A stretch of DNA of 37,271 nucleotides from Candidatus Woesearchaeota archaeon (GTDB taxonomy: Archaea > Nanobdellota > Nanobdellia > Woesearchaeales > UBA12501). Shown in pieces: positions 1 through 19,882 of this stretch (positions are counted from its first letter, which is position 1; the number at the start of each line of letters is the position of its first letter). The stretch covers positions 1 to 37,271 of the forward strand of contig WJJV01000048.1 of the NCBI GenBank assembly GCA_014729495.1, read 5' to 3'. The translations under genes were made by a program, and so were the position numbers. The notes below the pieces were generated by a model, which was not told the DNA's origin, ran no database searches, and saw only the letters and a program-made list of their open reading frames with translations.

Positions 1-2
1 AC

Positions 3-3000
3 TTCAGCACTGATTATAACTTCTTTGTCACAAGCAAGCAGGTAAGGGGCGTCACAACAGACAAGCTTGAGTTCAATGTAGCAGTAGAGGAGATTGAGAA
101 AATAGAGGCTCCAGAAGAACCTGCGCCGGCCGACCCTCCAACCATCGCAGGTCCAATGACAATAGTCATTGATCCAGGCCATGGAGCTCATGATTCAGGC
201 ACGCAAGGAGGGAGCCGTAATTATCCGTACCTCAAGCCTTATGAAGAGAACAAGCAGAAGATCATTGAATCATTTGTAGCAGAGGCCAACAAGAATATGT
301 ATATAGTTGAGGTTCTTGCTGAAAAGCTGAGATCTCAGGGCCATACTGTCCATCTCATAAGATACGGCCAGGAGTTCTATTGCGATTCCTGTGTTAGAGG
401 CAGGCAGGCAAGGACACTGTGGGCTGCCTCAAAGAAAGCAGACCTTTTCCTGAGTATACATAATAATGCAGCTGGTACTGGAAGAAGGATGAAGGCGCAG
501 AGAATGGTTCTTCTTCAGCTTGAGAGACATTGTGAAGGGGTAGAAGAATTCTGTGCTGAGTCAAAGAAACTAGCTGACTCTATCTCATCTACTTTGCAGA
601 AACATACAGGTGAAGATTACAGGGTTCTCAGGAGGCCTTTGTCAGGCACAAGCTCGTCACCAATAGGTTATTTCACTTCAAAGGCCGTGAAAGGGGCAAG
701 AGATGCTAACATGCCTTACTGCCTCATGGAGATTGCTGCAATAAACGACCCTGCATTGAATGATCCTGGCAAGATAGATGCCATAGCTTCTGCGATTGTA
801 CAGGGAATCCATGACTATGCAGGCCCTGCAAACAATCTTGTGGCTGCCACAACATCAGGTGCAGAGCTTGACTGCCACTACTGCAATGATGGAAAAGAGA
901 ATGTAAAGGATATATTCGGAGAAGAGGCATACCAGGAATGCATCAATAATGGGAAATCATGCTGCAATCTGAAATGCCCCCAGGACTCTGTTGTACTGGC
1001 TAACCTTCCTGAGTACAGGAACCAGCACAGAGATTATCAGGATCTTGGAACATGCGGAGAAAGCTCAAGAGGAGTGAGCGGATCAGGCTGCGGTCCTGTA
1101 TCAGCCCACATGGCTTTTGCAGAAGCAGGCAAGGATATATCTGTGAAATCACTGTTCTGCGCAGGAGAAGAGGATGAGATATACACTCCAGGAGACGGCA
1201 CTCTTGTGGAGGACATGGATAGGATTGCTAAAAAGCACCTGCCTGATTCAAGACTCTATCAGAAGTTTGATTTTGAGAAGATATCAATAGAGATAAAGGC
1301 AGGGAATCCTGTTATTCTTGACATTAAGCAGAAAGACAGCGGAGACAGGGAGCCAGAAGACTGGCAGAACTGGCGAGGCAGGAGCAACAGCCTCAATGAA
1401 AGATGCTACCAGACACAGGGGCACTGGGTCAATGTTGTCGGAGTTTCAGATGATCATATAATTGTGAATGATCCTGCAACAGGAGCAACATCATGCGACA
1501 GGGACAGGACAGTCGGAGAGAGGCAGGTATGGTCAAAGGAATTCGTCAATGACATATCATATTATGGTGTTGCTCTTGTTCCAGAGAGAAGTGATCAGCC
1601 TGCTGCTGGAGCAGGCACTGGCTCAAGAGAATACTACATCAATGATGGAGTGATAACAGAAGAGGATTTCATGAGCAAGCCAAGCAGAGAATCCCTGAAA
1701 TGGTGTTCTGCTTCAAGCTCTAACCAAATATTCAGATATGAAGATATCCAGAATAGATGCCCTCCATCAGAAAGGACTACAACATACAGTGGTGATGAAG
1801 GAGGTCTGATACCTGAGCAGGGAATCAATAAGAAGCTCATTGAACTGCTCAACCAGGCCCAGGAGAGATTCGGAGTCACAATAATAATAGAATCTGGAGT
1901 CAGGCCTTACAAGCATAACCTCTGGAGCTGGGCAAGGCTTGAAGCTGACAAAGCAGAAAAACTTGAACAGGACAATGATTTCAGGTTCTCATCTCCAGAC
2001 AGAGTAAGCCTCAACAACTGGCACATGTGCGGAGCAGCAGCAGACTTCAGGGTTAAGGAATGGCCCGCAAGCGCTGACATAGGCAAGTACAGGGAGATGG
2101 CCAGGTGGCTTGAGAGCACTTACTCTCCAGGATACTATCATGCGTATGAAACTGGAGAGGGAAGGGACCCTGACAATTACTATGAGAGCCCTTACATACA
2201 TGCTGATCCTTTTGGAAGATCAGACTGCACTGGAAAGAATGTAGAATATGTAAAGGTTGAGGTTCCTGTTGAGACAACGCTCACAACTGAACATAGTCCA
2301 GAGGAGGGGGTTGCTGAAGGGCAGATTGACATACTTGATGTTGACATCAGCAATGAGCCCCTTGTTCCTATACCTGAATACAAGGGAAAGAGCCTCTGCA
2401 AGCCAGGCATTGACTGCAGGCTCAAGAAGTCAGCAGCAGATGCAGTTATTAGGCTGGCAGAGGAGTTCGAGAACCAGGGATGCGAGCTATACATAAAGGA
2501 TGCTTACAGGTCAGAGAAAGCATACAGGTATCTTTACAACAAGTACAAGGCAAGAGGAGGGGTGTGCAGTCCAAGAGGAGGCAGCTTTGCCCACTGCCCT
2601 CATGCAATTGGAGCTGCTATAGACATTGAGTGGAGGAATTGCATGCCTTATGAGAAAAGGATAAAGGCTGCGTGCAAGGCAGGCTGGGCAAACTGGCAGT
2701 CAGAAGGATGGCATTTTGAGTTCGGATCAGATCACTGGAAAGAATCATTATCCTCAGGATACTGCCAGTGGCCTGAGGTATCAACAGGAGCAATCGGCGG
2801 AGGGGCATTCAAAGGCCACAAGGCTGTAACAACAGAGGATGCAGGGCTCAATCTTGGGCCTCAGAAACCCCCTGAAGAGTTCGGGACAAGCGAGGAGTGC
2901 AGGCAGTATGGACCAAATGAACCCATGCCTTTCAGGACATCTAGTCCATGCTTATCAGTTGGGCTGATGCAGGACATCCTTGAGGAAGCAGGGTCTCCTG

Positions 3001-6000
3001 TCGCAGAGCATGCCCAGGCATTCTATGATTATGGAATTGAGTATGGCATTGATCCTGCGATAGCTCTTGCATTCTTCAAGAAAGAATCGCAGTTTGGAAA
3101 AACAAAAAGATGCAATATCCCAGATATAGCAAAGAACCCTGGCAATATAAGGTATACTCCAGAAAGGTGTAGGGGTATAGAAAATACTTATTTCTATGAT
3201 AGCACTGACCTTGGCTGCCATCTAATAAATATTGAAGCAATGAGAAAGGGAGCAGAGCTTATCAAATCAAATCCAGAAAGGACTCCGCATGGAGATGGAA
3301 TATCCCGGCCTTACTGCAAGTATGACTCCTGGGAAGAAGGCATTGAAGCATGGTACAAAGCAATCAAAAACAAACCATACATTGCATCTGGAAGAACAAC
3401 TGTAGAGCAGATTACTGAGTTATATGCAGATGATCCCATTGCTTATCAGAAGTTTGTGAAGAAGTGGGTTAATGAGTGGAGGGCAGAACAGATAAGGAGA
3501 TTCGGAGGCACACCAACAGACAGAAGCCAGCTTCCTCCAGGAGAGGGAGTCATAGGCACAAATAAGATAATACTTGATCAGGCACTGCTAATGGAGAATA
3601 TTGCCTATAACTGGGCTGGAAGGTATGGGTATGCATTTGGTCCTACAGACTACAAGATGAACTGGGGCATTGACTGCATAGGGCTTCAGTATGTCACCCT
3701 GCGCCAGCTTGGAGCAATAGATGGCAGTGTAGAGTACAAGAAGATATTTGAGTGGGGAAAGACGGTTGTTGAGGAGATACCAGGCAAAAGAATCAGCGAC
3801 CAGGAGATCAGGGACAGCAATTTTGATGCTCTTATGCCCGGAGACCTTGTGTTTGTCAGGAATCAGGGGCATACTGGGATATATTTTGGAGAAAAGGACG
3901 GCAAGCATATGTTCCTGAATGCAAAAGGAAAAAAGAATCTAAAAAGCGGATGCAGTGACAACTGCTGCAAACCTGACGCAAAATTCAAGGTAACACTGAC
4001 TCCGATGGAGGATTATCTGAGCAAAGGAAAGATGGAGGCCTTGAGGGTTGATCCTTCACTTATTAAAGACAGGCCATACGCCTCTGAGATTCCTGCAGAT
4101 ACCCCTACAGATTATGTTTGCGAAGGTCCGCACTCAGTGCCGGATTACAGCAGGTATGGGGGCATAAGAAGAGAGTCAGAGTACTCTGACGGGCAGGAGA
4201 TCATAAAGGTGATCAGATCTATTGGAACTTACAGTGTTGAGCCTTCATTCACAATAGACACAGATTATGACTTTGGAGAGTATGAGATAATAGAGCAGCA
4301 GGTAAAAGGCCACGGAAGCGTAAAAGGAATGATTGACATGGTTGCTGAGTGCGAGGCAGGAGGTAAGGATGTAGAAGCATGTGTCTCTGATGCTGTCAAG
4401 GCAGTAAATGAGAGAGCAGAGATGAAAAACAGAGGTCTTGAGATGTACAATGGCCCGTGCAATCCAAAAGAGAATCTTTGGAGTGATCTTGTTGAAGGCA
4501 TGGGAGACTGCATAGATGCTGACCAGACCAACTGCTATTGCGAGATAAGGCTTGAGAAGGCAGAGCAGGCATCATTATTGTCAGCAAGCACCGCAAACAT
4601 AAAAGTAGAGACAGATGGAGACACAAAGATATCTTTGGAAGAATCCAATATCAAGAGATATTATACATTCAGCAAGAAAGTGAACTCAAAGGTTGCTCCT
4701 GCCTCAACAGATTCCGGTTCATCATCCAGATCAGCAGAAGATAACGGAATCAGCTATAAAAAAGAGAATCTCAATAGTGACCGGATCCATACAATAGATG
4801 TGGATCCAGCAGGATTTAATGTAGAGGTGGCTACTTCAAAGACAGGCAATACAAGAGAGGAGATTGACAAGATAATGGGATCTGATGATATTGCTGCCAT
4901 AAATGCAGGATTCTTTGACACCGGAGACGGCAAACCTGTCTCGATAATTGTTGAGGATGGAGCAAGGATATCAGAAAACCAGCCTCTCTCCAGCAGGATG
5001 CCTGATGATTCAGCTGATAAGGGATTCAATGGATGTTTTATTGTAAAGGAATCAGGAAGCACCAGGACATATGATATTGTGGATATAAGCGAGTTCAATC
5101 CAGATGAAGTCCAGTATGCTATCTGCTCTCCCTGGCTGGTGAAGGATCACAACTACAACTTTCCTTGCGAAACATTCAATGAAAAAAGAACCCTAGAAGG
5201 CCGCAGCCCATATTGTCCTGAGTCCAACAGAAGGTCTGTTCTTGCAATAAAGGATGATGGGACAGTCAGCCTCATTATAGCTAGGAATTATAATATCCCT
5301 GAGATAGGACAACACATAGCAAAGGATTACAAGGAGGCAATAGCTCTTGATGGAGGAGGCTCTGTCTCTATGGAATATCATCATGACGGAACAGATGTAT
5401 CTATAGGATGGGATTCAGGAAACACCCAGAGAAAGGTCTCCAGCGCAATTGTTGTGAAACCAAAACCTGATGCTGCGACAGGGAGTTCAGGAACAGGCTC
5501 AGCAGAACAATCAATAGATGGCGCAGATATATCAGGGAATATGAAACATGGAGATGTTTATTATCTGAGAAAAGCAGGGGCCAGCATCTATCTGCTTGGC
5601 AGCAAGCCAAGCACAAGAGAATGCAATACTGAGAAGCGCACATACAAGTTCTGCGTGGAATCTGATAAGAATATCCTGTACTATGATGAACAGCTGGCCA
5701 AGACAGTCAAGAGGAATGTGCAGTACAAGTTCGCTCTTGAATTTCCTGACAAGATGCCTCCTCCTCCAGTATCCGGCCTTAAGGCTTCTGACAAGCTCAA
5801 AGCAGAGTCATCTGTTGTGCTTGAATGGGATGCTCCAAAGCAGGGCCAGTCAGTGATAGATGATCTCAGCCATTATCTTGTTTACTGCACTGACACAGAG
5901 TTTGTCAAGCAGGGCGGAAGCGTGATAACTGCTGGCATAACCAGCCCGCAGAAAGTGGCTTCAGAGGCAGGCAAGGAACATCTTAATGTGCAGTCAGGAT

Positions 6001-7436
6001 ACTGCGCTGGCTCGCAGATATCTGACGGGCAGGAATACACTTTTGCTGTTGTTCCTGTTGACATCAGCGGAAATCAGGGGCCTGCAAAGGAGATAAAGGC
6101 AACATCAGTGGATGATCTTGCACCAGGGCCTGTCATCATTACCCTTGGTTCTGAGACATACACAATGGAAGGCCAGGCAACAGGCCTGCCAGCAGACTCA
6201 GTATCACTAAGCTGGCAGAAGCCTGCTAACAATGAGGATGGAGAATCAGAAGCTGATGACCTTGAATCCTATTGGGCATTCTTCTCAGAGAACACTCTCA
6301 GCCTGGAATCCTGCTCTGCGCCAGCTTGCGCTGAGGCAGCAGCAGGAACAGAATCAAATCAGTACACAGGTCTTGACCCTGCAAAGACATACAATTTTGC
6401 AGTCATCGCAGTTGACAGTGCAGGCAACCACATCACAACTGAGGAATTCACTGCACCAGAGCAGTGGAATGGTCTTGATATATCAGAATGCTACCTGGAC
6501 AGCCAGGGAACTGCAACCTGCAGGGGAGTCACAGCAGAAACCGCTGCGCAGGGTCCAAGCCCTTCAGGGCCTGACACTCTTGAGCAAGAGCTTTCTTCAG
6601 AGCTGGAAAACGCTGATCTGTCAGGTGCTCAGCAGCCTGCTGCAGGAGAAGATGGCATTGTTGATATGGCCATAGTGCTTGATGATGCAGGAGGTAGCTT
6701 CAGCAGCGACAAAAGAGGCATAGATATATTGAGATCAGCAGGAAGCCCTGCAATAACATTCGCAGTTTTCCCAAGAGCAGGTTCAACAGAGCAGACAGCT
6801 CAATATCTTGCATCAAACTATCCTCAGGACAGCTTTGACATGATAATACACCAGCCAATGGAGTACCTGGGAGAGGAGGTAGGCAGGGCAGGGCCTGCTG
6901 ACTGCTCAAAAACCTATACAGACAGGACAAGGATATGCGATGGCGATACTCCAGAGCAGGCCAAAACAATATTAAGAAGGCATATTGAGGATTTCCAGGG
7001 ATTCACCAATTTTGTAGGATACAACAACCATCAGGGAAGCAAGACAACAGGCAACAGGGAGCTGATGACAGGCCTGGCAGAACTAATCAAGAGCAGTTAT
7101 CCTGACCTTATTGTCATGGACAGCGCAACAGGAACCTCCCAGTATCCTCATATAGCATATGAGGTAATGCAGGACAAAGGAGTGAGATCATACATTAATG
7201 TGCAGTTCCTTGACAATACTGAGTCAGTGAGCTATACAAAAGCAAGGCTTCAGGATCTTGAAAGCAAGGCTTTAGAGAAAGGTTTTGCTGCGGGCATAGG
7301 GCATGTTGTAAGGTCCACAACTCCACAGGCAATAGCTGAATACCTAAGTGACTTCTCAAAACAAGGAGATCATTATGTAAAGCAGGTGGGTGACAGGAAA
7401 GTTAGGCTTGTTACATTGTCCGAGCTTCCGAAATAA
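3..7436 (+). CDS. Giant multidomain cell-wall (peptidoglycan) hydrolase, 5'-truncated: Amidase_3, C39-like, M15A-like, M15B/VanY-like, GH73-like, NlpC/P60, NAGPA, 2x FN3, divergent polysaccharide deacetylase
   Basis: The frame of ORF 156..7436 has no stop back to position 3 (FSTDYNFFVTSKQVRG...), so the start lies outside the window. Motifs: IDPGHG/SIHNNA/LMEI; Q..GCGP..GHW..NDP; SGVR..HMCGAAAD..YIHAD; AYRS..HAIGAAID..EGWH; ALAFFKKESQFG..NPGNI..YDSWEEGI; GIDCIG..PGDLVF..GHTGIY; AAINAGFFD..LDGGGS; AIVLDDAG..HQPME..NNHQGS..GIGH. Confidence 0.92.
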   Translation, partial: FSTDYNFFVTSKQVRGVTTDKLEFNVAVEEIEKIEAPEEPAPADPPTIAGPMTIVIDPGHGAHDSGTQGGSRNYPYLKPYEENKQKIIESFVAEANKNMYIVEVLAEKLRSQGHTVHLIRYGQEFYCDSCVRGRQARTLWAASKKADLFLSIHNNAAGTGRRMKAQRMVLLQLERHCEGVEEFCAESKKLADSISSTLQKHTGEDYRVLRRPLSGTSSSPIGYFTSKAVKGARDANMPYCLMEIAAINDPALNDPGKIDAIASAIVQGIHDYAGPANNLVAATTSGAELDCHYCNDGKENVKDIFGEEAYQECINNGKSCCNLKCPQDSVVLANLPEYRNQHRDYQDLGTCGESSRGVSGSGCGPVSAHMAFAEAGKDISVKSLFCAGEEDEIYTPGDGTLVEDMDRIAKKHLPDSRLYQKFDFEKISIEIKAGNPVILDIKQKDSGDREPEDWQNWRGRSNSLNERCYQTQGHWVNVVGVSDDHIIVNDPATGATSCDRDRTVGERQVWSKEFVNDISYYGVALVPERSDQPAAGAGTGSREYYINDGVITEEDFMSKPSRESLKWCSASSSNQIFRYEDIQNRCPPSERTTTYSGDEGGLIPEQGINKKLIELLNQAQERFGVTIIIESGVRPYKHNLWSWARLEADKAEKLEQDNDFRFSSPDRVSLNNWHMCGAAADFRVKEWPASADIGKYREMARWLESTYSPGYYHAYETGEGRDPDNYYESPYIHADPFGRSDCTGKNVEYVKVEVPVETTLTTEHSPEEGVAEGQIDILDVDISNEPLVPIPEYKGKSLCKPGIDCRLKKSAADAVIRLAEEFENQGCELYIKDAYRSEKAYRYLYNKYKARGGVCSPRGGSFAHCPHAIGAAIDIEWRNCMPYEKRIKAACKAGWANWQSEGWHFEFGSDHWKESLSSGYCQWPEVSTGAIGGGAFKGHKAVTTEDAGLNLGPQKPPEEFGTSEECRQYGPNEPMPFRTSSPCLSVGLMQDILEEAGSPVAEHAQAFYDYGIEYGIDPAIALAFFKKESQFGKTKRCNIPDIAKNPGNIRYTPERCRGIENTYFYDSTDLGCHLINIEAMRKGAELIKSNPERTPHGDGISRPYCKYDSWEEGIEAWYKAIKNKPYIASGRTTVEQITELYADDPIAYQKFVKKWVNEWRAEQIRRFGGTPTDRSQLPPGEGVIGTNKIILDQALLMENIAYNWAGRYGYAFGPTDYKMNWGIDCIGLQYVTLRQLGAIDGSVEYKKIFEWGKTVVEEIPGKRISDQEIRDSNFDALMPGDLVFVRNQGHTGIYFGEKDGKHMFLNAKGKKNLKSGCSDNCCKPDAKFKVTLTPMEDYLSKGKMEALRVDPSLIKDRPYASEIPADTPTDYVCEGPHSVPDYSRYGGIRRESEYSDGQEIIKVIRSIGTYSVEPSFTIDTDYDFGEYEIIEQQVKGHGSVKGMIDMVAECEAGGKDVEACVSDAVKAVNERAEMKNRGLEMYNGPCNPKENLWSDLVEGMGDCIDADQTNCYCEIRLEKAEQASLLSASTANIKVETDGDTKISLEESNIKRYYTFSKKVNSKVAPASTDSGSSSRSAEDNGISYKKENLNSDRIHTIDVDPAGFNVEVATSKTGNTREEIDKIMGSDDIAAINAGFFDTGDGKPVSIIVEDGARISENQPLSSRMPDDSADKGFNGCFIVKESGSTRTYDIVDISEFNPDEVQYAICSPWLVKDHNYNFPCETFNEKRTLEGRSPYCPESNRRSVLAIKDDGTVSLIIARNYNIPEIGQHIAKDYKEAIALDGGGSVSMEYHHDGTDVSIGWDSGNTQRKVSSAIVVKPKPDAATGSSGTGSAEQSIDGADISGNMKHGDVYYLRKAGASIYLLGSKPSTRECNTEKRTYKFCVESDKNILYYDEQLAKTVKRNVQYKFALEFPDKMPPPPVSGLKASDKLKAESSVVLEWDAPKQGQSVIDDLSHYLVYCTDTEFVKQGGSVITAGITSPQKVASEAGKEHLNVQSGYCAGSQISDGQEYTFAVVPVDISGNQGPAKEIKATSVDDLAPGPVIITLGSETYTMEGQATGLPADSVSLSWQKPANNEDGESEADDLESYWAFFSENTLSLESCSAPACAEAAAGTESNQYTGLDPAKTYNFAVIAVDSAGNHITTEEFTAPEQWNGLDISECYLDSQGTATCRGVTAETAAQGPSPSGPDTLEQELSSELENADLSGAQQPAAGEDGIVDMAIVLDDAGGSFSSDKRGIDILRSAGSPAITFAVFPRAGSTEQTAQYLASNYPQDSFDMIIHQPMEYLGEEVGRAGPADCSKTYTDRTRICDGDTPEQAKTILRRHIEDFQGFTNFVGYNNHQGSKTTGNRELMTGLAELIKSSYPDLIVMDSATGTSQYPHIAYEVMQDKGVRSYINVQFLDNTESVSYTKARLQDLESKALEKGFAAGIGHVVRSTTPQAIAEYLSDFSKQGDHYVKQVGDRKVRLVTLSELPK
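156..815 (+). other. Domain: N-acetylmuramoyl-L-alanine amidase (Amidase_3)
   Basis: IVIDPGHG (Zn His), EANKN (Zn Glu), LFLSIHNNA (Zn His), CLMEI (catalytic Glu). Boundaries approximate. Confidence 0.9.
1005..1580 (+). other. Domain: C39-like cysteine peptidase (Peptidase_C39_2 type)
   Basis: PEYRNQ (oxyanion Gln), SGCGPVSAHM (Cys), GHWVNVVG (His), IIVNDP (Asp). Boundaries approximate. Confidence 0.85.
1824..2210 (+). other. Domain: peptidase M15A-like Zn peptidase
   Basis: KLIELLNQAQERFG..IIIESGVRP..HN, HxxxxxxD (HMCGAAAD), YIHAD. Boundaries approximate. Confidence 0.8.
2418..2725 (+). other. Domain: peptidase M15B/C (VanY/VanX-like) Zn peptidase
   Basis: LYIKDAYRS, HAIGAAIDI (HxxxxxxD), SEGWHFEF (ExxH). 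Boundaries approximate. Confidence 0.87.
2960..3480 (+). other. Domain: glucosaminidase (GH73-like)/lysozyme-like fold
   Basis: YGIEYGIDPAIALAFFKKESQFG (catalytic Glu in ES), NPGNIR, KYDSWEEGIEAW, GRTTVEQITELYA. Boundaries approximate. Confidence 0.8.
3560..4050 (+). other. Domain: NlpC/P60 cysteine peptidase
   Basis: YNWAG, GIDCIGL (Cys), LMPGDLVF, GHTGIYFG (His), FLNA (third triad residue Asn). Boundaries approximate. Confidence 0.87.
4785..5460 (+). other. Domain: phosphodiester glycosidase (NAGPA/DUF2233)
   Basis: IAAINAGFFD, RRSVLAIKDDG, AIALDGGGSVSM, RKVSSAIVV. Boundaries approximate. Confidence 0.87.
5757..6430 (+). other. Domains: two fibronectin type III repeats
   Basis: PPPVSGL..SVVLEWDAP..YLVY..YTFAVVPVDISGN and PGPV..VSLSWQKP..TYNFAVIAVDSAGN. 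Confidence 0.8.
6666..7433 (+). other. Domain: divergent polysaccharide deacetylase (Polysacc_deac_2/YibQ-like)
   Basis: MAIVLDDAG, ITFAVFP, IIHQPME, GYNNHQGSKTT, VMDS, FLDN, AAGIGH. Confidence 0.88.
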
Positions 7437-7448
7437 CCATCATAAATG

Positions 7449-7465
7449 CAAAAACTATATAAATA
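7449..7465 (+). promoter_or_regulatory. BRE/TATA promoter of RPA gene
   Basis: A-rich BRE followed by TATATAAA (7456-7463). SD-like AGGGGTG at 7486-7492. Confidence 0.6.
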
Positions 7466-7499
7466 AAGGCTTAAAACAGATTCTTAGGGGTGTTTCAAG

Positions 7500-8663
7500 A
7501 TCGACATAAAAGTACCACATGATGTTGTAAGGGATAAGATAAAAGATCATTCTAACATAACAGATGAAGAGCTGGAAAGTAAGATCAAGGCAAAGATTGA
7601 CAAGCTTTCTGGACTCATATCAAAGGAAGGGGCTGCTCATATAATAGCCAATGAGCTGGGTATAAAGCTCTATGATCAGGCATCAGGCAGGCTCAAGATA
7701 AAGAACATCCTTGCAGGTATGAGGAATGTTGAGATTGCTGCAAAGGTCCAGCAGGTGTTTGAGGTAAGGGAATTCCAGACAGAGACCAGATCAGGAAAGG
7801 TAGGATCATTCATAGTAGGGGATGAGACCGGCACTATCAGGGTTGTCCTGTGGGGATCACAGGCAGATAAGCTCTCCCAGCTCAAAGAGAATGATATAAT
7901 CAAGGTGCAGTCAGCCTATGTGAAAGAGAATAGGGGAAGGAAAGAGGTGCATCTCGGAGACCAGGGTTCACTTGATATCAATCCAGAAGGAGAGAGCATA
8001 GGCGAGGTCAAGAAGATAAACTCAACAAGGAAGAGCATAAATGAGCTTGCTGAGAACATGCAGGATGTTGAAGTCCTGGGCACTGTTGTCCAGGTATATG
8101 ATATAAAGTTCTTTGATGTGTGCCCTGAATGCGGAAAGAAGACTCTTCCAAAAGAGGGCTCTGCAATATGCTCACAGCATGGATCTGTGACCTCTACATC
8201 ATCTTATGTCTTCAATGCTATCATAGATGATGGAACAGGAAACATCAGAGCAGCTTTCTTCAGGAAGCAGGTAGAGAATCTGCTGAAGAAGAGCCAGGAT
8301 GAGATTGTTGAGTTCAGGGATTCTGCAGAGAAATTCGAGCAAGTAAAGCACGACCTGTTAGGAAAGCAGATAAAGATTGTAGGAAGGGTCAACAAGAACA
8401 TGATGTTTGACAGGATAGAGCTTATAGCCCAGCTTGTGTTCCCTGACCCTGATCCAGAAGAGGAGATTAAGAGGCTGCAGTCAGAAAAGCCTGCTGAAAG
8501 CAGTAATCAGCAGGGTTCTGTCCAGGAGAGCACAGATACAGGCAGTGTTTCATCTCAGCCAGCTCCAGAAACTGAGCAGTCCCAGACAGATAATGTGCAG
8601 CAGAGTCCAGTATCAGAGAGTTCTGAAAAACCAATGTTTAATATAGATAAACCTGATTCTTGA
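7500..8663 (+). CDS. rpa: Replication protein A (N-terminal helical domain, OB folds, Zn finger); start probably non-canonical
   Basis: OB-fold motifs VGDETGTIRVVLWG and IIDDGTGNIRAAFF; Zn finger CPEC..CSQH. In-frame upstream extension 7500-7718 encodes the conserved-looking KLSGLISKEGAAHIIANELG. An in-frame TAG sits at 7485 and there is no ATG/GTG/TTG before 7719. Confidence 0.85.
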   Translation: MDIKVPHDVVRDKIKDHSNITDEELESKIKAKIDKLSGLISKEGAAHIIANELGIKLYDQASGRLKIKNILAGMRNVEIAAKVQQVFEVREFQTETRSGKVGSFIVGDETGTIRVVLWGSQADKLSQLKENDIIKVQSAYVKENRGRKEVHLGDQGSLDINPEGESIGEVKKINSTRKSINELAENMQDVEVLGTVVQVYDIKFFDVCPECGKKTLPKEGSAICSQHGSVTSTSSYVFNAIIDDGTGNIRAAFFRKQVENLLKKSQDEIVEFRDSAEKFEQVKHDLLGKQIKIVGRVNKNMMFDRIELIAQLVFPDPDPEEEIKRLQSEKPAESSNQQGSVQESTDTGSVSSQPAPETEQSQTDNVQQSPVSESSEKPMFNIDKPDS

Positions 8664-8670
8664 AATTAAG

Positions 8671-9135
8671 ATGATGTTCAGGACTCATATTGCAATAGGG
8701 TTTCTTGCAGGACTGCTTCTTATACAGGCATGGAATCCTCAGAACCAGATACTGTTCATGTTTCTGATACTCCTGGGATCAGCCCTGCCTGATATAGACC
8801 ATCCTGATTCCAAGATAGGAAGTAAAGTAAAGGCTGTATCATTCCTATTTGAGCATAGGGGATTCTTCCACAGTCTTTTTGCAGCATTGATGATATTTCT
8901 TTTGCTTGCTTATTATGTCAGTGGCCTGACCTATGGAATATACATAGCAGCTGTGGCTATTGGATACCTGCTTCACATGCTCGCTGATTCTTTGACAAGA
9001 GAGGGAATAATGCCCTTCCATCCAATATCAAGATTCAGGCTCAGGGGTCCTATGAGGACTGGCAGGATGGTGGAATATATAATATTCATCTGCTTCATAG
9101 CTCTGGGCATATGGAAAATGTTCACATTCCACTGA
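8671..9135 (+). CDS. YdjM-family membrane-bound metal-dependent hydrolase
   Basis: RTH, LPDIDH, HRGFFHS and HMLADSLT..G motifs; several TM helices. Confidence 0.85.
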   Translation: MMFRTHIAIGFLAGLLLIQAWNPQNQILFMFLILLGSALPDIDHPDSKIGSKVKAVSFLFEHRGFFHSLFAALMIFLLLAYYVSGLTYGIYIAAVAIGYLLHMLADSLTREGIMPFHPISRFRLRGPMRTGRMVEYIIFICFIALGIWKMFTFH

Positions 9136-9682: not shown

Positions 9683-9715
9683 TCTCTCCACAACATTAAT
9701 AAAAAGGTGATGCTA

Positions 9716-10798
9716 ATGGCTAAACAGAAGATGAAAGAAAATGATGAAAGTAATGTAGAAGAGAACCTGCCTGAACAGGAATCTGAGGAAAATAACAAAG
9801 ATTCTAACAAGGATTCTCAGGAAGCAGAAGAGATAAAGATAGATGCATCTGAGGAAGTGATGAAAAAAGCAGGAGTGGAGGACCTTCCAGGAGTTGGTGC
9901 AGCTACAGCGCAGAAGCTTCAGGAAGGAGGATTCAGTGACCTCATGGCGATTGCTGTCGCTTCTCCAGGAGAAATAGTGGATACTACAGGAATATCAGAG
10001 CAGGTCGCAAGGAAGATGATCAATGCAGCCAGGAATAATCTTGACATGGGATTTGAGTCTGGCGAAGAACTTCTTAAGAGAAGAGAGAAAGTAATGAAGA
10101 TAAACACAGGAAGCGAATCATTCGACGAGCTTCTTGGAGGAGGCTTCGAGACTTCAGCCATTGTTGAATGCTTTGGAGAGTTCGGATCAGGAAAGACCCA
10201 GGTTGGACATCTGCTTGCAGTAAACTGCCAGAAGGCTGACCCTGAAGCAGTGGCTGTATACATTGATACTGAGAACACCTTCAGGCCTGAGAGGATAAAG
10301 CAGCTTGCAAAAGGAGCTGGCATTGATCCAAAAAAAGCTCTGGCAAACATCAAAGTGGCAAAGGCATACAACTCTGACCACCAGATGCTGCTTGCAGAGA
10401 AGGTAGAGGACCTTATAAAGAAGGATAACCATAAAGTCAGGGTAATCATAGTGGATTCCTTGACAGCGCACTTCAGGGCTGAATTTGTGGGCAGAGGAAC
10501 TCTTGCAGAGAGGCAGCAGAAACTCAACAAGCATATGCACATACTTCTCAAACTTGCAGATAATCACAATGTGTGTGTTTATGTCACCAACCAGGTTATG
10601 TCAAAGCCTGATGTGTTCTTTGGGGATCCTACCCAGGCAATAGGAGGCCATATTGTTGCTCATGCATCAACTTTCAGGGTCTATCTCAGGAAAGGCAAGA
10701 AAGGCAGCAGAGTGGCTAAGCTTATTGACAGCCCGAACCTGGCTGACGGAGAATGCGCATTCTTTGTTGAGGAAGGCGGACTTAAGGACATCAACTGA
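9716..10798 (+). CDS. radA: DNA repair and recombination protein RadA
   Basis: HhH DLPGVG, FxxG polymerisation motif, Walker A GEFGSGKT, Walker B IIVDS, LAERQQKL, GGHIVAH. SD AGGTGA before ATG 9716. Confidence 0.97.
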   Translation: MAKQKMKENDESNVEENLPEQESEENNKDSNKDSQEAEEIKIDASEEVMKKAGVEDLPGVGAATAQKLQEGGFSDLMAIAVASPGEIVDTTGISEQVARKMINAARNNLDMGFESGEELLKRREKVMKINTGSESFDELLGGGFETSAIVECFGEFGSGKTQVGHLLAVNCQKADPEAVAVYIDTENTFRPERIKQLAKGAGIDPKKALANIKVAKAYNSDHQMLLAEKVEDLIKKDNHKVRVIIVDSLTAHFRAEFVGRGTLAERQQKLNKHMHILLKLADNHNVCVYVTNQVMSKPDVFFGDPTQAIGGHIVAHASTFRVYLRKGKKGSRVAKLIDSPNLADGECAFFVEEGGLKDIN

Positions 10799-13516: not shown

Positions 13517-15004
13517 ATGAGGCATGGCAGGTACATAATCACAGCTATATTCATTCTTACCCTAGCTGCAAGGCTGATAATATCATTTCAGACACCATTC
13601 TTCACAGGAGATGAATCATATTTCTCAATAAGGCAGGCAGAGCACATAAGCCAGAATGCCCTTCCGATCTATGATGATGAACTAAGTTACAGTGGAAGAG
13701 AGAATATATTCATGCCCCTTTTCTACTATCTGCTGGCTTTCTTCAATCTTTTCATGCCAATAGGCCTTGTGGGCAAGATAATCCCAAACATCCTTGTGTC
13801 TCTGAATGTGATTCTTGTATATGTTATTGCCATGCATATCAGCAATGATGAAGGGGCTTCGTTATTCTCTGCATTTGTGGCTGGATTCATCCCTGTATTC
13901 TTCAGGGAGACAGTCAACACAATATCACCCTATACCATTTTCTTTCCTTTGATGCTGTTCATGATATATTGTTTCCTCAGGCTAGAACAGCATCCATTTG
14001 CCCATCTTTTCCTTGCCAGCCTTTTTCTCATGACACTGACATCTCCTGCAGTGATAATAGTCCTGCTCGCTTTGATATTTTATATGGGTCTGGTGCAGCT
14101 TGAGAATCTGAAGCAGAACAAGAGAGAGGTTGAGATGACCCTTTTCTCAATCTTATTTGTGGTCTGGATTCTGTTCATAGTTTACAAGAAAGCCTTTCTT
14201 ATGCATGGTCCAGATGTGATATGGCAGAATATACCTGCAGGAATACTTGACAGGTACTTCATAGACATCACTATACTGGGAGCAATATACCAGATAGGAT
14301 CTCTTCCCCTGTCCTATGGGATATATTCAATATATGACCATCTTTTCAGGAAAAAAGAGAGGAAGTATTATCTGATAATAGGGCTTGTCTTCTCTTCAGC
14401 GCTGCTTCTTTGGCTGAAGCTTATAGAGATCCAGCTCGGCTTGATGTGCCTAGGCATAGCAGTCACGCTTCTTTTCCCAAAATTCTATAAATACACCTTT
14501 CAATACATAAAGAAGACCCGCTTTGCCAAGCTGAGATTCGCTTATTTTGCTGTGCTCCTGGCAGCTTTCCTGGCCACATCTGTAGTGCCTTCAGTGATTT
14601 ATGGTCTTAGAGCGACAGATGATGCAATAACCCCTGATGAATACGGGGCAATGATATGGCTCAGGAAGAATACTGATCAGGATGCGGTAGTGATGTCACC
14701 CATGCGGGAAGGCATGATCATCACAACAATAGCTGAGAGGAGAAACATTGCTGACAGCAATTTCATGCTCTTAGATGATGCAGAGAAAAGATTCAATGAC
14801 ATAAAAGATGCTTATACAACAGGGTTTGAGATAAAGGCTCTTGAGGTGTTTGATAAGTATGATGTTGATTATATATATTTCTCTGATTACAGCAAAGATT
14901 ATTTTGAGACTTCCAACCTGGAGTACACTTCCCATGAGGAATGTTTTGAAGAGGCATACAATCAGGGAGCTATGATTTATAAGGTGATGTGTGAACTAAG
15001 ATGA
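13517..15004 (+). CDS. GT-C-fold polytopic membrane glycosyltransferase (AglB/STT3- or PMT-like)
   Basis: First loop GDESYFSIRQ, about 11-13 TM helices, soluble C-domain WLRKNT..VVMS..KYDVDYIY. Confidence 0.7.
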   Translation: MRHGRYIITAIFILTLAARLIISFQTPFFTGDESYFSIRQAEHISQNALPIYDDELSYSGRENIFMPLFYYLLAFFNLFMPIGLVGKIIPNILVSLNVILVYVIAMHISNDEGASLFSAFVAGFIPVFFRETVNTISPYTIFFPLMLFMIYCFLRLEQHPFAHLFLASLFLMTLTSPAVIIVLLALIFYMGLVQLENLKQNKREVEMTLFSILFVVWILFIVYKKAFLMHGPDVIWQNIPAGILDRYFIDITILGAIYQIGSLPLSYGIYSIYDHLFRKKERKYYLIIGLVFSSALLLWLKLIEIQLGLMCLGIAVTLLFPKFYKYTFQYIKKTRFAKLRFAYFAVLLAAFLATSVVPSVIYGLRATDDAITPDEYGAMIWLRKNTDQDAVVMSPMREGMIITTIAERRNIADSNFMLLDDAEKRFNDIKDAYTTGFEIKALEVFDKYDVDYIYFSDYSKDYFETSNLEYTSHEECFEEAYNQGAMIYKVMCELR

Positions 15005-16434
15005 AGAATGAAAAAAGAATACTTAACATAATATCTATAATCATGGTAGTTACAGTATTCATAATCCTGCCTCAGCTGATGAGGCTCAATGACGGCAATG
15101 CCACAATCATGGGTGAAGAACCTTACTATCATGCCCTTGCTGCAGAGAGCATTGGAGGCAAAAGCAGCATACAGAGAGAACCCCCATTAAGCTCAGATGA
15201 ATATATTCATATAACGCCTTACCACCTGCTTATAGCAGGCACATCCAATATTACAGGAATGGATTTCGCTTTGAGAATGATTCCATTGATATGCGGAATT
15301 TTCTCTGGAGTTCTATTCTTTCTCATATTGAAGCGACTAGGACTGAATGACTTTATAAGCAAAGCATCTGTTGTATTACTGGCTTCAGCTCCGGTTTTTG
15401 TGTTCTCATTCATAGCTACCCAGGATTCTTTTGCAATAGTTCTCAGTCTTGCCGGAGCCTACTTTTTCCTCAAAAATAAGAGATTTGGTGTTATCCTGTC
15501 AGCCTTGTTTTTTGGGCTTGCTTCTATGTTCAGCCTGTTCAACATGCTCCTGATAATAGTATCCCTTCTGGCATTCTCTTTCAGCCAGAAGAAGATGCAG
15601 AGAAGATCCATGTTTCTTATGATGATATCTCTGATAGCTTACTCAATTAATCCCGGCCCAATATTCTATAATCTTTTTATGCTGTCTCCCAATGCATTGA
15701 AACAGGCAATATCTGATATCGGAGGCATACTGGGCATTGGGATCTTCTATGCTATTCTTGCATTGATAGGTTTTGCCCTTACCTGGAAAGATATAGGAAA
15801 GTACAAGGCAGTCTATGCTGTTCTTGCATTCTTTGCAGCAGGATTCTATTTTGCAGGAAGCCATATCCTTATGTATGCAAATTTCATTATTGCTTTCCTG
15901 GCTGCAGTGGCACTTGAGAGATTAAATCAAAGAAAGTGGGATATGCAGATGATAAAGAACTTCACATTCTTCATAATAGCCTGCGGTATACTCTTCTCTT
16001 TCATATCTTATTCTGCAAGGATATCCCTTATGCCTCCGAACCAAGAGATTGAGGAAGGGCTTATATGGCTGGGTGATAATTCAAGAGAGGACAGTATTGT
16101 GGCATCGCATTACAGCAATGGATACTACATAGAATATTATTCAAGACTGGAGGCTCTGATAGACAGCAGCATGCTGCATCATGAAAGGCCTGAATCAGTA
16201 TTCCTTGACGCATATGATCTCTTCCACGCCACTGAGATGGGCAGAGCTAGGGCAATAATTGAGAGATATGACATAAAATATATAATGATAACCGATGACA
16301 TGGTCAGGGGAGATGTCTGGCAGGAGGATGGTGAAGGATTGCTGAGGCTTCTTGATAATAAAGAGGTATTCAGCATGGCATATGATTCAGATGAGATTGA
16401 AGTCTGGAGATACATTGAACCATTAAGCCAGTAA
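15001..16434 (+). CDS. GT-C-fold polytopic membrane glycosyltransferase (AglB/STT3-like), paralog of the upstream gene
   Basis: GEEPYYH loop, many TMs, WLGDNS..IVASHYSNGYYI..RYDIKYI. ATGA overlap with the previous gene. Confidence 0.7.
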   Translation: MKNEKRILNIISIIMVVTVFIILPQLMRLNDGNATIMGEEPYYHALAAESIGGKSSIQREPPLSSDEYIHITPYHLLIAGTSNITGMDFALRMIPLICGIFSGVLFFLILKRLGLNDFISKASVVLLASAPVFVFSFIATQDSFAIVLSLAGAYFFLKNKRFGVILSALFFGLASMFSLFNMLLIIVSLLAFSFSQKKMQRRSMFLMMISLIAYSINPGPIFYNLFMLSPNALKQAISDIGGILGIGIFYAILALIGFALTWKDIGKYKAVYAVLAFFAAGFYFAGSHILMYANFIIAFLAAVALERLNQRKWDMQMIKNFTFFIIACGILFSFISYSARISLMPPNQEIEEGLIWLGDNSREDSIVASHYSNGYYIEYYSRLEALIDSSMLHHERPESVFLDAYDLFHATEMGRARAIIERYDIKYIMITDDMVRGDVWQEDGEGLLRLLDNKEVFSMAYDSDEIEVWRYIEPLSQ

Positions 16435-16461
16435 CAGCTTAGCTCATAATATCAATAATAA

Positions 16462-16689
16462 TAAAAATTGCCTGTTTCATTTATAAGCAATCCCTATCCC
16501 CAACCTAAAGGTTGGGGTATTACAGGATTGCATTTTACACAGGCAATTTTTAGTCTTGAAAATGGCACCTCTCGCACTAAAGTGCGGGGTATTACTTGCG
16601 AACTTGTTCGCAAGTCTGATAATCCCAGACGAGCCTGAGAGTCGGGATTATCTTTAAACCCAATGAAAATAGCTTGGTGCCATTTTCAA
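16462..16689. repeat. Two adjacent nested inverted-repeat units, each with an IS200/IS605-end-like hairpin (REP/PATE-like)
   Basis: Perfect 14-bp IRs at 16462-16475/16539-16552 and 16556-16569/16676-16689. Shared inner motif CCCCAACC-TAAA-GGTTGGGG-TATTAC and CTCGCAC-TAAA-GTGCGGGG-TATTAC. Confidence 0.75.
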
Positions 16690-16712
16690 TAGATATCAGC
16701 TATGGATTAAGA

Positions 16713-18452: not shown

Positions 18453-18513
18453 TGGACTATGATTGTGCTATCCTCTAGAGCTAGTTTGCACAATGTTATA
18501 CAGAATCACCCCT

Positions 18514-19854: not shown

Positions 19855-19882
19855 AAAAACCTCTTTTTGTGCCTCTCTTGTG

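What the first reader, a model, noticed from the sequence alone, without database searches (positions are those of the whole stretch)
3..7436. Archaeal giant protein with eight bacterial cell-wall-degrading domains: a one-gene peptidoglycan demolition kit
Seen in sequence: one frame of at least 2477 codons with intact catalytic motifs for Amidase_3, C39-like, M15A-like, M15B/VanY-like, GH73/lysozyme-like, NlpC/P60, NAGPA and YibQ-type deacetylase, sitting directly beside archaeal rpa and radA. Established: these families collectively cut the MurNAc-L-Ala amide, stem-peptide and cross-link bonds and the glycan backbone of peptidoglycan; archaea do not make peptidoglycan; stand-alone PG hydrolases have been reported in archaea, including DPANN. 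Inference: a concatenated hydrolase covering essentially every bond class suggests a surface weapon for breaching or scavenging bacterial walls, implying a bacterial host or prey rather than an archaeal one. I know of no described archaeal protein with this full architecture, but I could not search.
Basis: partly seen in the sequence, partly recalled or inferred. Interest (0 to 1): 0.96.

Follow-up and report, generated by a model that had tools for sequence, protein, structure and literature searches.

The report
Archaeal giant multi-enzyme bacterial-wall hydrolase
A tiny-genome (DPANN) archaeon encodes a roughly 2,600-residue, membrane-tethered surface protein that strings together eight enzyme modules for cutting bacterial cell wall, an extreme form of a kind of archaeal anti-bacterial tool that has already been described.

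Summary
Window 3-7436 is one open frame of 2477 codons. Pfam finds Amidase_3, Peptidase_C39_2, VanY, NAGPA, YibQ-type deacetylase and fn3 above their cut-offs. M15A, GH73 and NlpC/P60 fall below them but have other support, and the catalytic motifs as I recall them are present.

The contig is archaeal (RPA, RadA, RadB, Topo VI), of the Woesearchaeota type. The missing N-terminus lies on contig C109, which overlaps the window by 124 nt. It adds 143 residues that begin with a basic stretch and a long hydrophobic helix, giving about 2620 aa. An independent metagenome contig keeps the whole gene order, so neither the join nor the junction near 7440 is chimeric.

New here:
- The enzymes sit as swappable cassettes on a lineage-specific scaffold protein, found in 220 of 301 sampled genomes of the phylum.
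- That scaffold gene closes a conserved operon of N-terminally anchored proteins.
- Only two or three relatives with comparable multi-enzyme architectures turned up in billions of proteins.

The idea of large extracellular peptidoglycan-degrading proteins in Woese- and Pacearchaeota, implying bacterial partners, is already published. Activity, target and export remain untested. Verdict: a real, striking new variant of a known kind.

The parts
3..7436 (+). Giant ORF, 5'-open in the window: 2477 codons plus stop. The full gene starts on contig C109 (ATG at C109:5125), 143 codons upstream, for about 2620 aa.
   Evidence: frame arithmetic (C109:5554 = window 3)
1..124 (+). Stretch 100% identical to the last 124 nt of contig C109. 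It is the only such end overlap between contigs in the bin and links the window to the gene's 5' end.
   Evidence: the join is corroborated by collinear P0002, P0003 and L030
162..812 (+). Amidase_3 domain (N-acetylmuramoyl-L-alanine amidase), aa 54-270. The His/Glu/His/Glu motif strings are present.
   Evidence: phrog_435 endolysin, 1.2e-14; aligned to 4rn7
867..1076 (+). Cys-rich linker ahead of the C39-like domain, aa 289-358. Its cysteines are invariant in all 4 aligned relatives.
   Evidence: invariant columns C291, C294, C313, C320, C321, C325, C351
1077..1478 (+). Peptidase_C39_2 (papain-like cysteine peptidase), aa 359-492. Cys363, His474 and Asn489/Asp490 are invariant in 4 of 4 relatives.
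1818..2204 (+). M15A-like zinc peptidase (Peptidase_M15_3 / phage endolysin phrog_894), aa 606-734. The H-x6-D and H-x-D strings are conserved in 3 of 3 aligned sequences.
   Evidence: (weak); no PDB sequence hit
2418..2732 (+). VanY (M15B D-Ala-D-Ala carboxypeptidase family), aa 806-910
   Evidence: (weak alignment to 4mph)
3015..3461 (+). GH73-like N-acetylglucosaminidase (lysozyme-like), aa 1005-1153. The Glu at aa 1028 is invariant in 16 of 16 aligned sequences.
   Evidence: (below cut-off)
3630..3935 (+). NlpC/P60-CHAP superfamily cysteine peptidase, aa 1210-1311. Cys at aa 1225 and His at aa 1290.
   Evidence: (below cut-off); no PDB sequence hit
4152..4604 (+). Conserved Cys-rich 'middle' scaffold domain, aa 1384-1534. 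Fold unknown.
   Evidence: pLDDT 72.9; 0 Foldseek hits at E<=0.001
4890..5456 (+). NAGPA (phosphodiester glycosidase) domain, aa 1630-1818
5550..6437 (+). Conserved beta-rich region plus two fibronectin type III domains, aa 1850-2145 (scaffold part)
6672..7367 (+). Polysacc_deac_2 (YibQ-type divergent polysaccharide deacetylase), aa 2224-2455. This module is seen only in this protein among its close relatives.
   Evidence: (2nly, 7.5e-10)
7719..8663 (+). Context: RPA-like OB-fold ssDNA-binding protein. Its ortholog follows the giant gene in L030 too.
9707..10798 (+). Context: RadA recombinase. The best named relatives are Nanoarchaeota, Nanoarchaeia and Woesearchaeota MAGs.

Best explanation
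The gene encodes a cell-surface protein of about 2620 aa in a Woesearchaeota-type DPANN archaeon.

Proposed arrangement:
- An N-terminal hydrophobic helix tethers the protein to the membrane. Less likely, the helix is a pilin-type (class III) signal that places it in a filament.
- The rest of the chain projects outwards as beads on a string.
- Those beads are enzymes that together can dismantle bacterial murein: the MurNAc-L-Ala amide bond (Amidase_3), stem-peptide and cross-link bonds (C39-like, M15A, VanY, NlpC/P60) and the glycan backbone (GH73).
- Two accessory envelope-glycan enzymes are also present (NAGPA, perhaps for phosphodiester-linked wall polymers, and a YibQ-type deacetylase).

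The enzymes are cassettes inserted into a lineage-specific scaffold protein. That scaffold consists of an N-terminal module, a Cys-rich middle domain and a beta/fn3 region, and its gene closes a conserved operon of N-terminally anchored proteins.

The most likely use is local digestion of the wall of a bacterial cell that the archaeon touches (host or prey), giving access to the cell or to its wall-derived nutrients.

Shown: the domain content, the archaeal context, the N-terminus, the synteny and the scaffold-and-cassette pattern. Inferred: export, activity, the bonds cut and the ecological use.
For: Domains and motifs.

Archaeal chromosome, not a chimera:
- Neighbours are RPA, RadA, RadB and Topo VI.
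- The named RadA relatives are mostly Nanoarchaeota/Nanoarchaeia/Woesearchaeota MAGs.
- GC3 of the giant gene is 0.438, against 0.46 +/- 0.06 for 500 long ORFs of the genome.
- 19 ORF pairs match between C109+C18 and the independent contig L030, in one conserved order.
- The same upstream cluster is present in the congeneric genome G376.

No murein of its own: 0 Mur_ligase_M matches.

N-terminus: a basic stretch plus a long hydrophobic stretch, conserved in P0003, P0005 and 17 further homologues. The model shows a helix at residues 4-30.

Further wall hydrolases in the same genome:
- a 350-aa Amidase_3-like protein in the same operon, whose L030 ortholog scores 37.5 bits
- a 1458-aa ORF on contig C2 with Amidase_3 and Peptidase_M23

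Scaffold and cassettes:
- The alignment of P0001, P0002, P0003 and P0005 shows conserved scaffold blocks with catalytic modules present or absent between them.
- Smaller scaffold genes in relatives carry one module each (GH73, VanY or C39_2) in the same ORF as the N-terminal module (G005, G115, G062, G012).
- The N-terminal module is found in 217 of 401 genomes of the order and in 220 of 301 high-quality genomes of the phylum sample.

Published precedent for the function.
Against: - No enzyme activity, expression or localisation data exist.
- Three of the eight catalytic assignments are below Pfam's cut-offs. Shallow profiles for two of them found nothing in PDB sequences.
- No recognised wall-binding domain (LysM, SH3b, PG_binding) appears at E<=1.
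- The substrates of the NAGPA and YibQ families are not established.
- The YibQ module has no counterpart in the close relatives, so that part of the architecture rests on this contig alone.
- The contig break lies inside the gene's 5' region, and within-gene assembly errors cannot be excluded without reads.
- The scaffold family is so widespread, mostly without detectable hydrolase modules, that its basic role may have nothing to do with bacteria.
Confidence: 0.7

Rival explanations
1. The enzymology is the same but the use differs. The protein is a feeding tool that digests free wall debris (necromass) for sugars and amino acids, and does not act on living bacteria.
For: - The breadth of bond classes, including a deacetylase and a phosphodiester glycosidase, suits complete breakdown of a polymer.
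- A Glucosamine_iso (NagB-type) gene is present.
- Passages in PMC11537232 propose peptidoglycan of dead bacteria as an amino-acid source for Pacearchaeota.
Against: - The protein appears tethered by its N-terminus rather than released, which favours action at contact.
- NagA is not found above its cut-off and no LD-carboxypeptidase is found, so a catabolic route for the products is not evident. The genome is 91% complete.
Confidence: 0.2
2. The protein is mainly an adhesin. The hydrolase-like modules bind wall components but are catalytically silent, and serve only to hold on to a partner.
For: - In the relative P0003/L030 the NlpC/P60 nucleophile position is Gly instead of Cys, so modules can decay.
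- Two fn3 domains and a conserved scaffold suggest a structural role.
Against: In the window's protein every motif string that I checked is present. The C39_2 Cys/His/Asn-Asp positions are invariant in 4 of 4 relatives, and the GH73 Glu is invariant in 16 of 16 sequences.
Confidence: 0.05
3. The target is not bacterial murein. It is an archaeal wall polymer (pseudomurein of a methanogen host) or the organism's own envelope.
For: - DPANN with known hosts live on other archaea, as the abstracts seen state.
- There is a very weak pseudomurein-binding-repeat hit (E 0.057) in one operon protein of G376.
Against: - By established knowledge of these families, Amidase_3, VanY, NlpC/P60 and GH73 act on MurNAc-linked peptides containing D-amino acids and on the GlcNAc-MurNAc glycan. 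Pseudomurein has none of these (recalled).
- No Mur-type ligase is found in the genome. By the tool's own control, this family is detected in 2 of its 4 archaeal control genomes.
Confidence: 0.03
4. The finding is an artefact: a bacterial or phage gene joined to an archaeal contig by mis-assembly or mis-binning.
For: - The contig starts inside the gene.
- The catalytic families are typical of bacteria and phages.
Against: - An independent metagenome contig keeps the same gene order on both sides, and the congeneric genome G376 keeps the upstream cluster.
- GC3 lies within the genome's range.
- The scaffold parts of the protein are specific to Nanobdellota/Woesearchaeota.
Confidence: 0.02

Closest known systems
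[quoted passage not shown] 2021, PMC8204110; earlier noted by Rinke 2013 and Castelle 2015, as cited there)
   Same: - Same lineage, same size class (up to 3,000 aa) and predicted extracellular location.
- Same proposed role: binding and degrading bacterial wall, hinting at bacterial hosts (passages).
- The congeneric ortholog P0005 carries an SLT domain on the same scaffold.
   Different: - The window's protein has no SLT domain (the best hit is SLT_2 at E 0.12), and no SLT was found in the genome.
- Its glycan-cleaving module is GH73-like, and it adds seven further enzyme modules.
- Whether it falls in fam00969 could not be checked, because the supplementary tables are closed.
Modular archaeal peptidoglycan hydrolases surveyed and tested by Strock et al. 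2025 (PMC12352652)
   Same: - Archaeal proteins with bacterial-type wall-hydrolase domains, prominent and diverse in Nanoarchaeota.
- Patchy distribution and domain shuffling.
- Antibacterial use shown for two haloarchaeal M23 enzymes.
   Different: - Their screen required a recognised wall-binding domain. None is detected here, so this protein would probably not have been counted.
- The two enzymes they tested each have a single M23 catalytic domain with two tandem PG-binding domains.
- Here eight catalytic-type modules sit on a lineage-specific scaffold.
Multi-catalytic bacterial autolysins and phage endolysins (for example the amidase plus glucosaminidase 'bifunctional autolysin', PDB 6fxo, hit)
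   Same: The same catalytic families and the same beads-on-a-string logic. PHROG endolysin families match two modules.
   Different: - Those proteins usually combine one to three catalytic domains with wall-binding repeats (recalled).
- They act on the producer's or the phage host's own wall.
- Here the producer has no murein, and the number of modules is far higher.
Giant 'Archaeovorin' proteins of predatory Omnitrophota (West-Roberts et al. 2023 preprint, 10.1101/2023.11.21.568195)
   Same: Very long multi-enzyme surface proteins of ultrasmall cells, implicated in degrading the wall of a partner from the other domain of life (passages).
   Different: - The direction is mirrored: there bacteria attack archaea.
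- The domain set differs (glycosyl transferases, methyltransferases and others).
- The sizes differ: the preprint's size classes start above 10,000 aa.

Membership tests
Amidase_3 (PF01520, N-acetylmuramoyl-L-alanine amidase) | Profile score above the curated cut-off | tested here: met
   66.1 bits against 27; 71.4 bits in the genome scan
Amidase_3 (PF01520, N-acetylmuramoyl-L-alanine amidase) | Zn ligands His/Glu/His and the catalytic Glu (residue roles recalled) | tested here: met
   The strings at aa 56-61, 92-98, 151-156 and 241-246 align with the corresponding stretches of solved amidase 4rn7
Peptidase_C39_2 (PF13529) | Profile score above the cut-off, with the Cys/His dyad present | tested here: met
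   35.8 bits against 24. Cys363, His474 and Asn489/Asp490 are invariant in 4 of 4 relatives
Peptidase_M15_3 / M15A | Profile score above the cut-off | tested here: not met
   14.7 bits against 23.2. The ortholog P0002 scores 23.1. PHROG endolysin phrog_894 matches at E 2.1e-9. There is no PDB sequence hit. I treat it as M15A-like, not as a proven member
Peptidase_M15_3 / M15A | LAS-type metal motifs H-x6-D and H-x-D (recalled) | tested here: met
   The strings at aa 673-682 and 731-736 are conserved in 3 of 3 aligned sequences
VanY (PF02557, M15B) | Profile score above the cut-off, and the metal motif | tested here: met
   27.7 bits against 25. The H-x6-D string at aa 867-874 aligns to the corresponding stretch of 4mph, and a Trp-His string (GWHFE) follows at aa 900-907
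GH73 / Glucosaminidase (PF01832) | Profile score above the cut-off | tested here: not met
   21.1 bits against 30.2. However, a 16-sequence profile hits solved GH73 enzymes at 1.2e-6 to 4e-4
GH73 / Glucosaminidase (PF01832) | Catalytic Glu and the C-terminal Tyr-containing motif (recalled) | tested here: met
   Glu at aa 1028 is invariant in 16 of 16 sequences, and Tyr at aa 1141 (column Y192) is also invariant; Tyr at aa 1148 is nearly invariant. The motif string lies at aa 1140-1148
NlpC/P60 (PF00877) | Profile score above the cut-off | tested here: inconclusive
   20.6 bits against 23 here and 24.1 in the ortholog P0002. The ESM Atlas neighbours are NlpC/P60, CHAP and Amidase_5 clusters. 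There is no PDB sequence hit
NlpC/P60 (PF00877) | Cys nucleophile and His (recalled) | tested here: met
   Cys at aa 1225 and His at aa 1290 are present. The relative P0003/L030 has Gly at the Cys position
NAGPA (PF09992) | Profile score above the cut-off | tested here: met
   63.4 bits against 25. Catalytic residues were not examined
Polysacc_deac_2 (PF04748, YibQ type) | Profile score above the cut-off, and a solved relative | tested here: met
   88.4 bits against 27.5. 2nly matches at E 7.5e-10 over aa 2223-2453. Metal ligands were not examined
Modular archaeal PGH in the sense of Strock et al. 2025 | At least one catalytic domain plus at least one recognised cell-wall-binding domain | tested here: not met
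   Catalytic domains are present. No LysM, SH3b, PG_binding or similar domain appears at E<=1
DPANN large lytic-transglycosylase proteins (fam00969, Castelle 2021) | SLT-type murein lytic transglycosylase domain | tested here: not met
   SLT_2 scores only E 0.12. There is no SLT in the genome. The congeneric ortholog P0005 has SLT at 69.1 bits
DPANN large lytic-transglycosylase proteins (fam00969, Castelle 2021) | Membership of the published protein cluster | not testable with these tools
Archaeal type IV pilin-like (class III signal) proteins | Basic residue plus Gly/Ala/Ser directly before a long hydrophobic stretch at the N-terminus (recalled FlaFind-type rule) | tested here: inconclusive
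   The pattern is present in the giant protein and its homologues. My crude version of the pattern also fits 84 of 1037 ORFs of 150 aa or more, so it is not specific
Archaeal type IV pilin-like (class III signal) proteins | Pilin family or pilin fold | tested here: not met
   No Pfam family for the N-terminal 200 aa. The model has pLDDT 77.5 and gives 0 Foldseek PDB hits at E<=0.001
Archaeal type IV pilin-like (class III signal) proteins | Prepilin peptidase and assembly ATPase available; ATPase next to the locus | tested here: inconclusive
   One Peptidase_A24 and 4 T2SSE genes are in the genome. In 5 of 5 relatives checked, no T2SSE gene lies next to the scaffold locus

The most novel reading that the evidence does not exclude
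The conserved operon that ends in this scaffold gene encodes a dedicated surface apparatus of Nanoarchaeia. It may be a pilus-like fibre built from proteins with pilin-type N-termini. Its terminal subunit would be a platform into which wall-cutting enzyme cassettes are swapped according to the bacterial partner.

The eight-module protein would then be the most heavily armed version of an organelle for breaching bacterial envelopes. The operon's spread (N-terminal module in 220 of 301 sampled genomes) would mean that contact with bacteria, not only with archaea, is an ancestral and common lifestyle in this large archaeal class.
Probability: 0.15. Interest if true: 0.9.

Novelty: new variant of a known kind. 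Interest (0 to 1): 0.6.

Why it matters
The hosts or prey of most Woese- and Pacearchaeota are unknown, and whether any DPANN archaea live on bacteria is an open question.

A single, membrane-tethered protein carrying intact-looking modules against every main bond class of murein, in an organism with no sign of making murein, is about as direct a genomic hint of physical interaction with bacteria as sequence can give.

- The modules are individually expressible, so their specificities can be measured and used to narrow down the partner (for example DAP-type against Lys-type stem peptides, or the need for deacetylation).
- The scaffold-and-cassette pattern gives a handle for finding further, unrecognised effector modules in related genomes.
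- These enzymes are also a possible source of new antibacterial lysins.

Tried and rejected
- Read support: the look-up of sequencing runs listed no run for window 1-9000 ('none was listed', and no RNA holder listed). Read laying was therefore not used, and neither coverage across the joins nor expression could be examined.
- Pilus linkage: no T2SSE ATPase lies next to the scaffold locus in 5 of 5 relatives. My crude class-III-like pattern is common in the genome (84 of 1037 ORFs). I therefore demoted the pilin reading to the 'novel case'.
- PDB sequence searches: 3-sequence profiles of the NlpC/P60 region (one irrelevant hit, E 1.5) and of the M15A region (0 hits) added nothing. The whole protein against PDB sequences found only the YibQ relative.
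- NCBIfam gave only sub-threshold amidase and dipeptidase hits.
- Recent foreign origin of single modules: GC3 per module ranges from 0.37 to 0.51, against a genome mean of 0.46 +/- 0.06. This gives no clear signal, and I did not pursue it.
- Donor lineages of the modules were not traced, because the large protein library carries no names and the listing of cluster members was off.
- Catabolism of wall products: NagB-type present, NagA below its cut-off, LdcA not found. This is too thin to decide between feeding and attack.
- Paralogues of the giant's modules in the genome: tblastn found none at E<=1e-3 apart from the C109 overlap.
- Supplementary tables of Castelle 2021 and Strock 2025 could bear on membership and novelty, but supplements are closed and I did not ask for them.


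Full report
**1. The observation**

Window 3-7436 (+) is a single frame open from the first bases of the contig, 2477 codons long.

Pfam places ten domains along it:
- Amidase_3, aa 54-270
- Peptidase_C39_2, aa 359-492
- a weak Peptidase_M15_3 match at aa 606-639
- VanY, aa 806-910
- Glucosaminidase/GH73, aa 1005-1153
- NLPC_P60, aa 1210-1311
- NAGPA, aa 1630-1818
- two fn3 domains, aa about 1931-2145
- Polysacc_deac_2, aa 2224-2455

Five catalytic families and fn3 pass Pfam's curated cut-offs. M15_3, GH73 and NlpC/P60 do not.

The three weak families have other support:
- GH73: a profile of the GH73-like region and 15 small homologues hits solved GH73 enzymes, at 1.2e-6 for 8yxk and about 4e-4 for 6fxo and 7pj3.
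- M15-like: the region matches PHROG endolysin family 894 at 2.1e-9.
- In the 69%-identical relative P0002, NLPC_P60 passes its cut-off and M15_3 misses by 0.1 bit.
- NlpC: the ESM Atlas places this region among NlpC/P60, CHAP and Amidase_5 clusters.
- Shallow profiles of the NlpC and M15A regions found nothing useful among PDB sequences.

The motif strings that I recall as catalytic for each family are all present (coordinates). Several are invariant across relatives.

NAGPA and YibQ-type deacetylases are envelope-glycan families with unproven substrates, so six of the eight modules are classical murein hydrolases.

**2. Organism and integrity of the locus**

- The rest of the contig encodes RPA-like, RadA, RadB-like, ribosomal S2 and topoisomerase VI A and B proteins.
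- The named RadA relatives are mostly Nanoarchaeota, Nanoarchaeia and Woesearchaeota MAGs.
- The bin is 1.35 Mb in 134 contigs and 91% complete.
- No Mur-type ligase is detectable.
- The window is a whole contig. Its first 124 nt are identical to the end of contig C109, the only such end overlap in the bin.
- The frame continues 200 codons into C109, with an ATG 143 codons upstream of the window's first codon. This gives about 2620 aa.
- P0002 and P0003 run uninterrupted across this point.
- An independent metagenome contig (L030) carries an 1855-aa relative flanked by the same genes on both sides. Upstream are six or seven small ORFs. Downstream are RPA, YdjM, RadA, TRAM, S2, RadB and three further genes. 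In all, 19 ORF pairs match in one conserved order.
- The congeneric genome G376 has the same upstream cluster.
- GC3 of the giant gene (0.438) lies within the genome's range.

A chimeric join near 7440 or at the contig start is therefore very unlikely. Reads could not be examined, because no run was listed.

**3. The N-terminus**

The added N-terminus is a short basic stretch followed by a hydrophobic stretch of about 23 residues, then a globular module of about 130 residues. The AlphaFold model has mean pLDDT 77.5. It shows a helix at residues 4-30, a second long helix and a small sheet.

The hydrophobic stretch is too long for an ordinary cleaved signal peptide (my judgement). It fits a signal-anchor or a pilin-type (class III) signal.

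For the pilin reading:
- All genes of the upstream cluster have the same kind of N-terminus.
- G376 has two additional ORFs of 93-94 aa that look pilin-like.
- The genome has an A24 prepilin peptidase and four T2SSE ATPases.

Against the pilin reading:
- No pilin family or fold is recognised.
- The pattern is common in this genome (84 of 1037 ORFs).
- No ATPase lies beside the locus in 5 of 5 relatives.

I take 'tethered at the surface' as the working conclusion and keep 'pilus subunit' as the bold reading.

**4. Relatives and architecture**

Close relatives are rare:
- A word-indexed search of 5.8 billion clusters found only P0002 (69% identity, a partial protein from a Nanoarchaeota MAG) and P0003 (52%), besides the query itself.
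- HMMER with the first 1200 aa against 1.84 billion representatives gave 691 hits at E<=0.001, but only 5 at E<=1e-30: P0002, P0003, P0005, P0006 and P0007.

Architectures of these relatives:
- P0002 has the same order from Amidase_3 through NlpC/P60, followed by a second M15A-like module.
- The fragment P0007 carries M15A, NAGPA and fn3.
- P0003 has Amidase_3, C39_2, NAGPA, GH73 and NlpC. Its NlpC has Gly at the nucleophile position. It has no M15A, VanY or deacetylase.
- P0005, which is the gene of the congeneric genome G376, has C39_2, NAGPA and SLT.

The alignment shows constant blocks with catalytic modules present or absent between them. The constant blocks are the N-terminal module, the Cys-rich linker with C39_2, a Cys-rich middle domain and a beta/fn3 region.

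The N-terminal module is widespread:
- Alone, it is found in 217 of 401 genomes of the order.
- As a 19-sequence profile, it is found in 220 of 301 high-quality genomes sampled across the phylum, including other orders of the class.
- It usually occurs once per genome, in ORFs of 97 to 1860 aa.

In the whole-protein search of 201 genomes of the order, 66 matched, but only piecewise. Most matched the middle or fn3 scaffold parts. A minority matched single catalytic modules, and some of those lie in the same ORF as the N-terminal module: G005 with GH73, G115 and G062 with VanY, and G012 with C39_2.

The operon is conserved too:
- A homologue of the 172-aa gene lies just upstream of the scaffold gene in 15 of 18 loci examined.
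- Homologues of the 350-aa Amidase_3-like gene were found in 45 of 301 genomes. In nearly all listed cases they lie 1.2-3 kb upstream on the same strand.

Other long multi-enzyme proteins exist with ordinary signal peptides and different mixes of modules: Metallophos, NAGPA, GH73, GH3, CE4 and a VanY-like region. Their organisms are unknown.

**5. Mechanism proposed**

The protein is anchored by its N-terminus, and the chain would extend from the cell. Where the archaeon touches a bacterium, the modules would act as follows:
- Amidase_3 strips stem peptides from the glycan.
- The four peptidase families cut stems and cross-links.
- GH73 cuts the glycan.
- The NAGPA and deacetylase modules may remove phosphodiester-linked wall polymers or change acetylation so that the other enzymes can act (inference).

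The genome holds further wall hydrolases: the operon's own Amidase_3-like protein, and a 1458-aa ORF with Amidase_3 and M23 on contig C2. This fits an organism invested in this activity. Whether the purpose is entry, feeding on a living partner, killing competitors or scavenging debris cannot be decided from sequence. The hints on catabolism of the products are thin.

**6. Comparison with what is known**

- Passages in Castelle et al. [quoted passage not shown] They propose attachment to bacterial walls and bacterial hosts.
- Vigneron et al. 2022 and a 2024 mBio paper (PMC10936187) repeat this for further MAGs.
- Strock et al. 2025 surveyed modular hydrolases in archaea and demonstrated killing by two haloarchaeal enzymes.
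- West-Roberts et al. 2023 describe the mirror case of giant bacterial proteins aimed at archaeal walls.
- None of the passages I read mentions an eight-module concatenation, the scaffold-and-cassette organisation, or the conserved operon. Supplementary tables that might list this family were closed.

**7. Verdict**

Its function as an extracellular murein-degrading multi-enzyme is well supported by homology but untested.

It is a new and extreme variant of a known kind, not a new kind. The scaffold, cassette and operon context is the part most worth following up.

Interest is moderate to high (0.6). The bold reading, a conserved envelope-breaching apparatus across Nanoarchaeia, has a probability of about 0.15.

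Noticed in passing
G000 contig C109 (L016:2-5084), upstream of the window: Six co-directional ORFs (427+, 165, 356, 350, 172 and 181 aa). The five whose N-termini are on the contig each begin with a basic stretch plus a hydrophobic helix; the first ORF is 5'-open. The 350-aa protein hits Amidase_3 (E 1.6e-7), and one protein is Cys-rich with weak thrombospondin-type-3 hits. The order is conserved in L030, in G376 and, in part, in many genomes of the order.
   Followed up: partly
G000 contig C2 (L025:328-4701, minus strand): A second large wall-hydrolase candidate: a 1458-aa ORF, cut by the contig end inside its Amidase_3 domain. It also carries Peptidase_M23 (63.2 bits), followed by about 1100 aa with no Pfam family.
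   Followed up: partly
G000 genome as a whole: This 1.35-Mb genome holds 6 open frames longer than 2000 aa and 42 of 900 aa or more. Three giants scanned carry beta-helix/laminin-G domains, PKD/MopE domains, or bacterial Ig domains, respectively. None carries a hydrolase domain.
   Followed up: partly
window 33784-37203 (+): A 1139-aa protein with several Ig-like folds (FixG_C, Cep192-like, WxL-interacting-protein host-binding-domain hits) and a hydrophobic region near aa 555-645. It is another probable surface protein.
   Followed up: no
window 15001-21142: A glycosylation cluster: a PMT_2-like protein (15001-16434), Glyco_trans_1_3 with a GT28 C-terminal domain (16674-17774), and two GT2/chitin-synthase-like genes on the minus strand (18514-19854, 19883-21142).
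   Followed up: no
L030:9840-10352 (relative P0003): The NlpC/P60 module of this relative has Gly where the window's protein and P0002 have the presumed nucleophile Cys. This suggests decay of one cassette.
   Followed up: partly
G376:C14 (L051:391-669 and 1769-2050): Two small ORFs (93 and 94 aa) with pilin-like N-termini lie at the head of the conserved cluster in the congeneric genome. Neither matched a pilin family in Pfam at E<=0.5 (one had none, the other three weak unrelated hits).
   Followed up: partly
relatives G021, G077, G135, G477: Matches to the 350-aa Amidase_3-like operon protein contain one in-frame stop each (TGA or TAA) in these genomes. These could be pseudogenes, sequencing errors or split genes.
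   Followed up: no
protein P0173: A RadA 78% identical to the window's is labelled 'candidate division KSB1 bacterium' by its source. It is probably a mis-binned archaeal contig.
   Followed up: no
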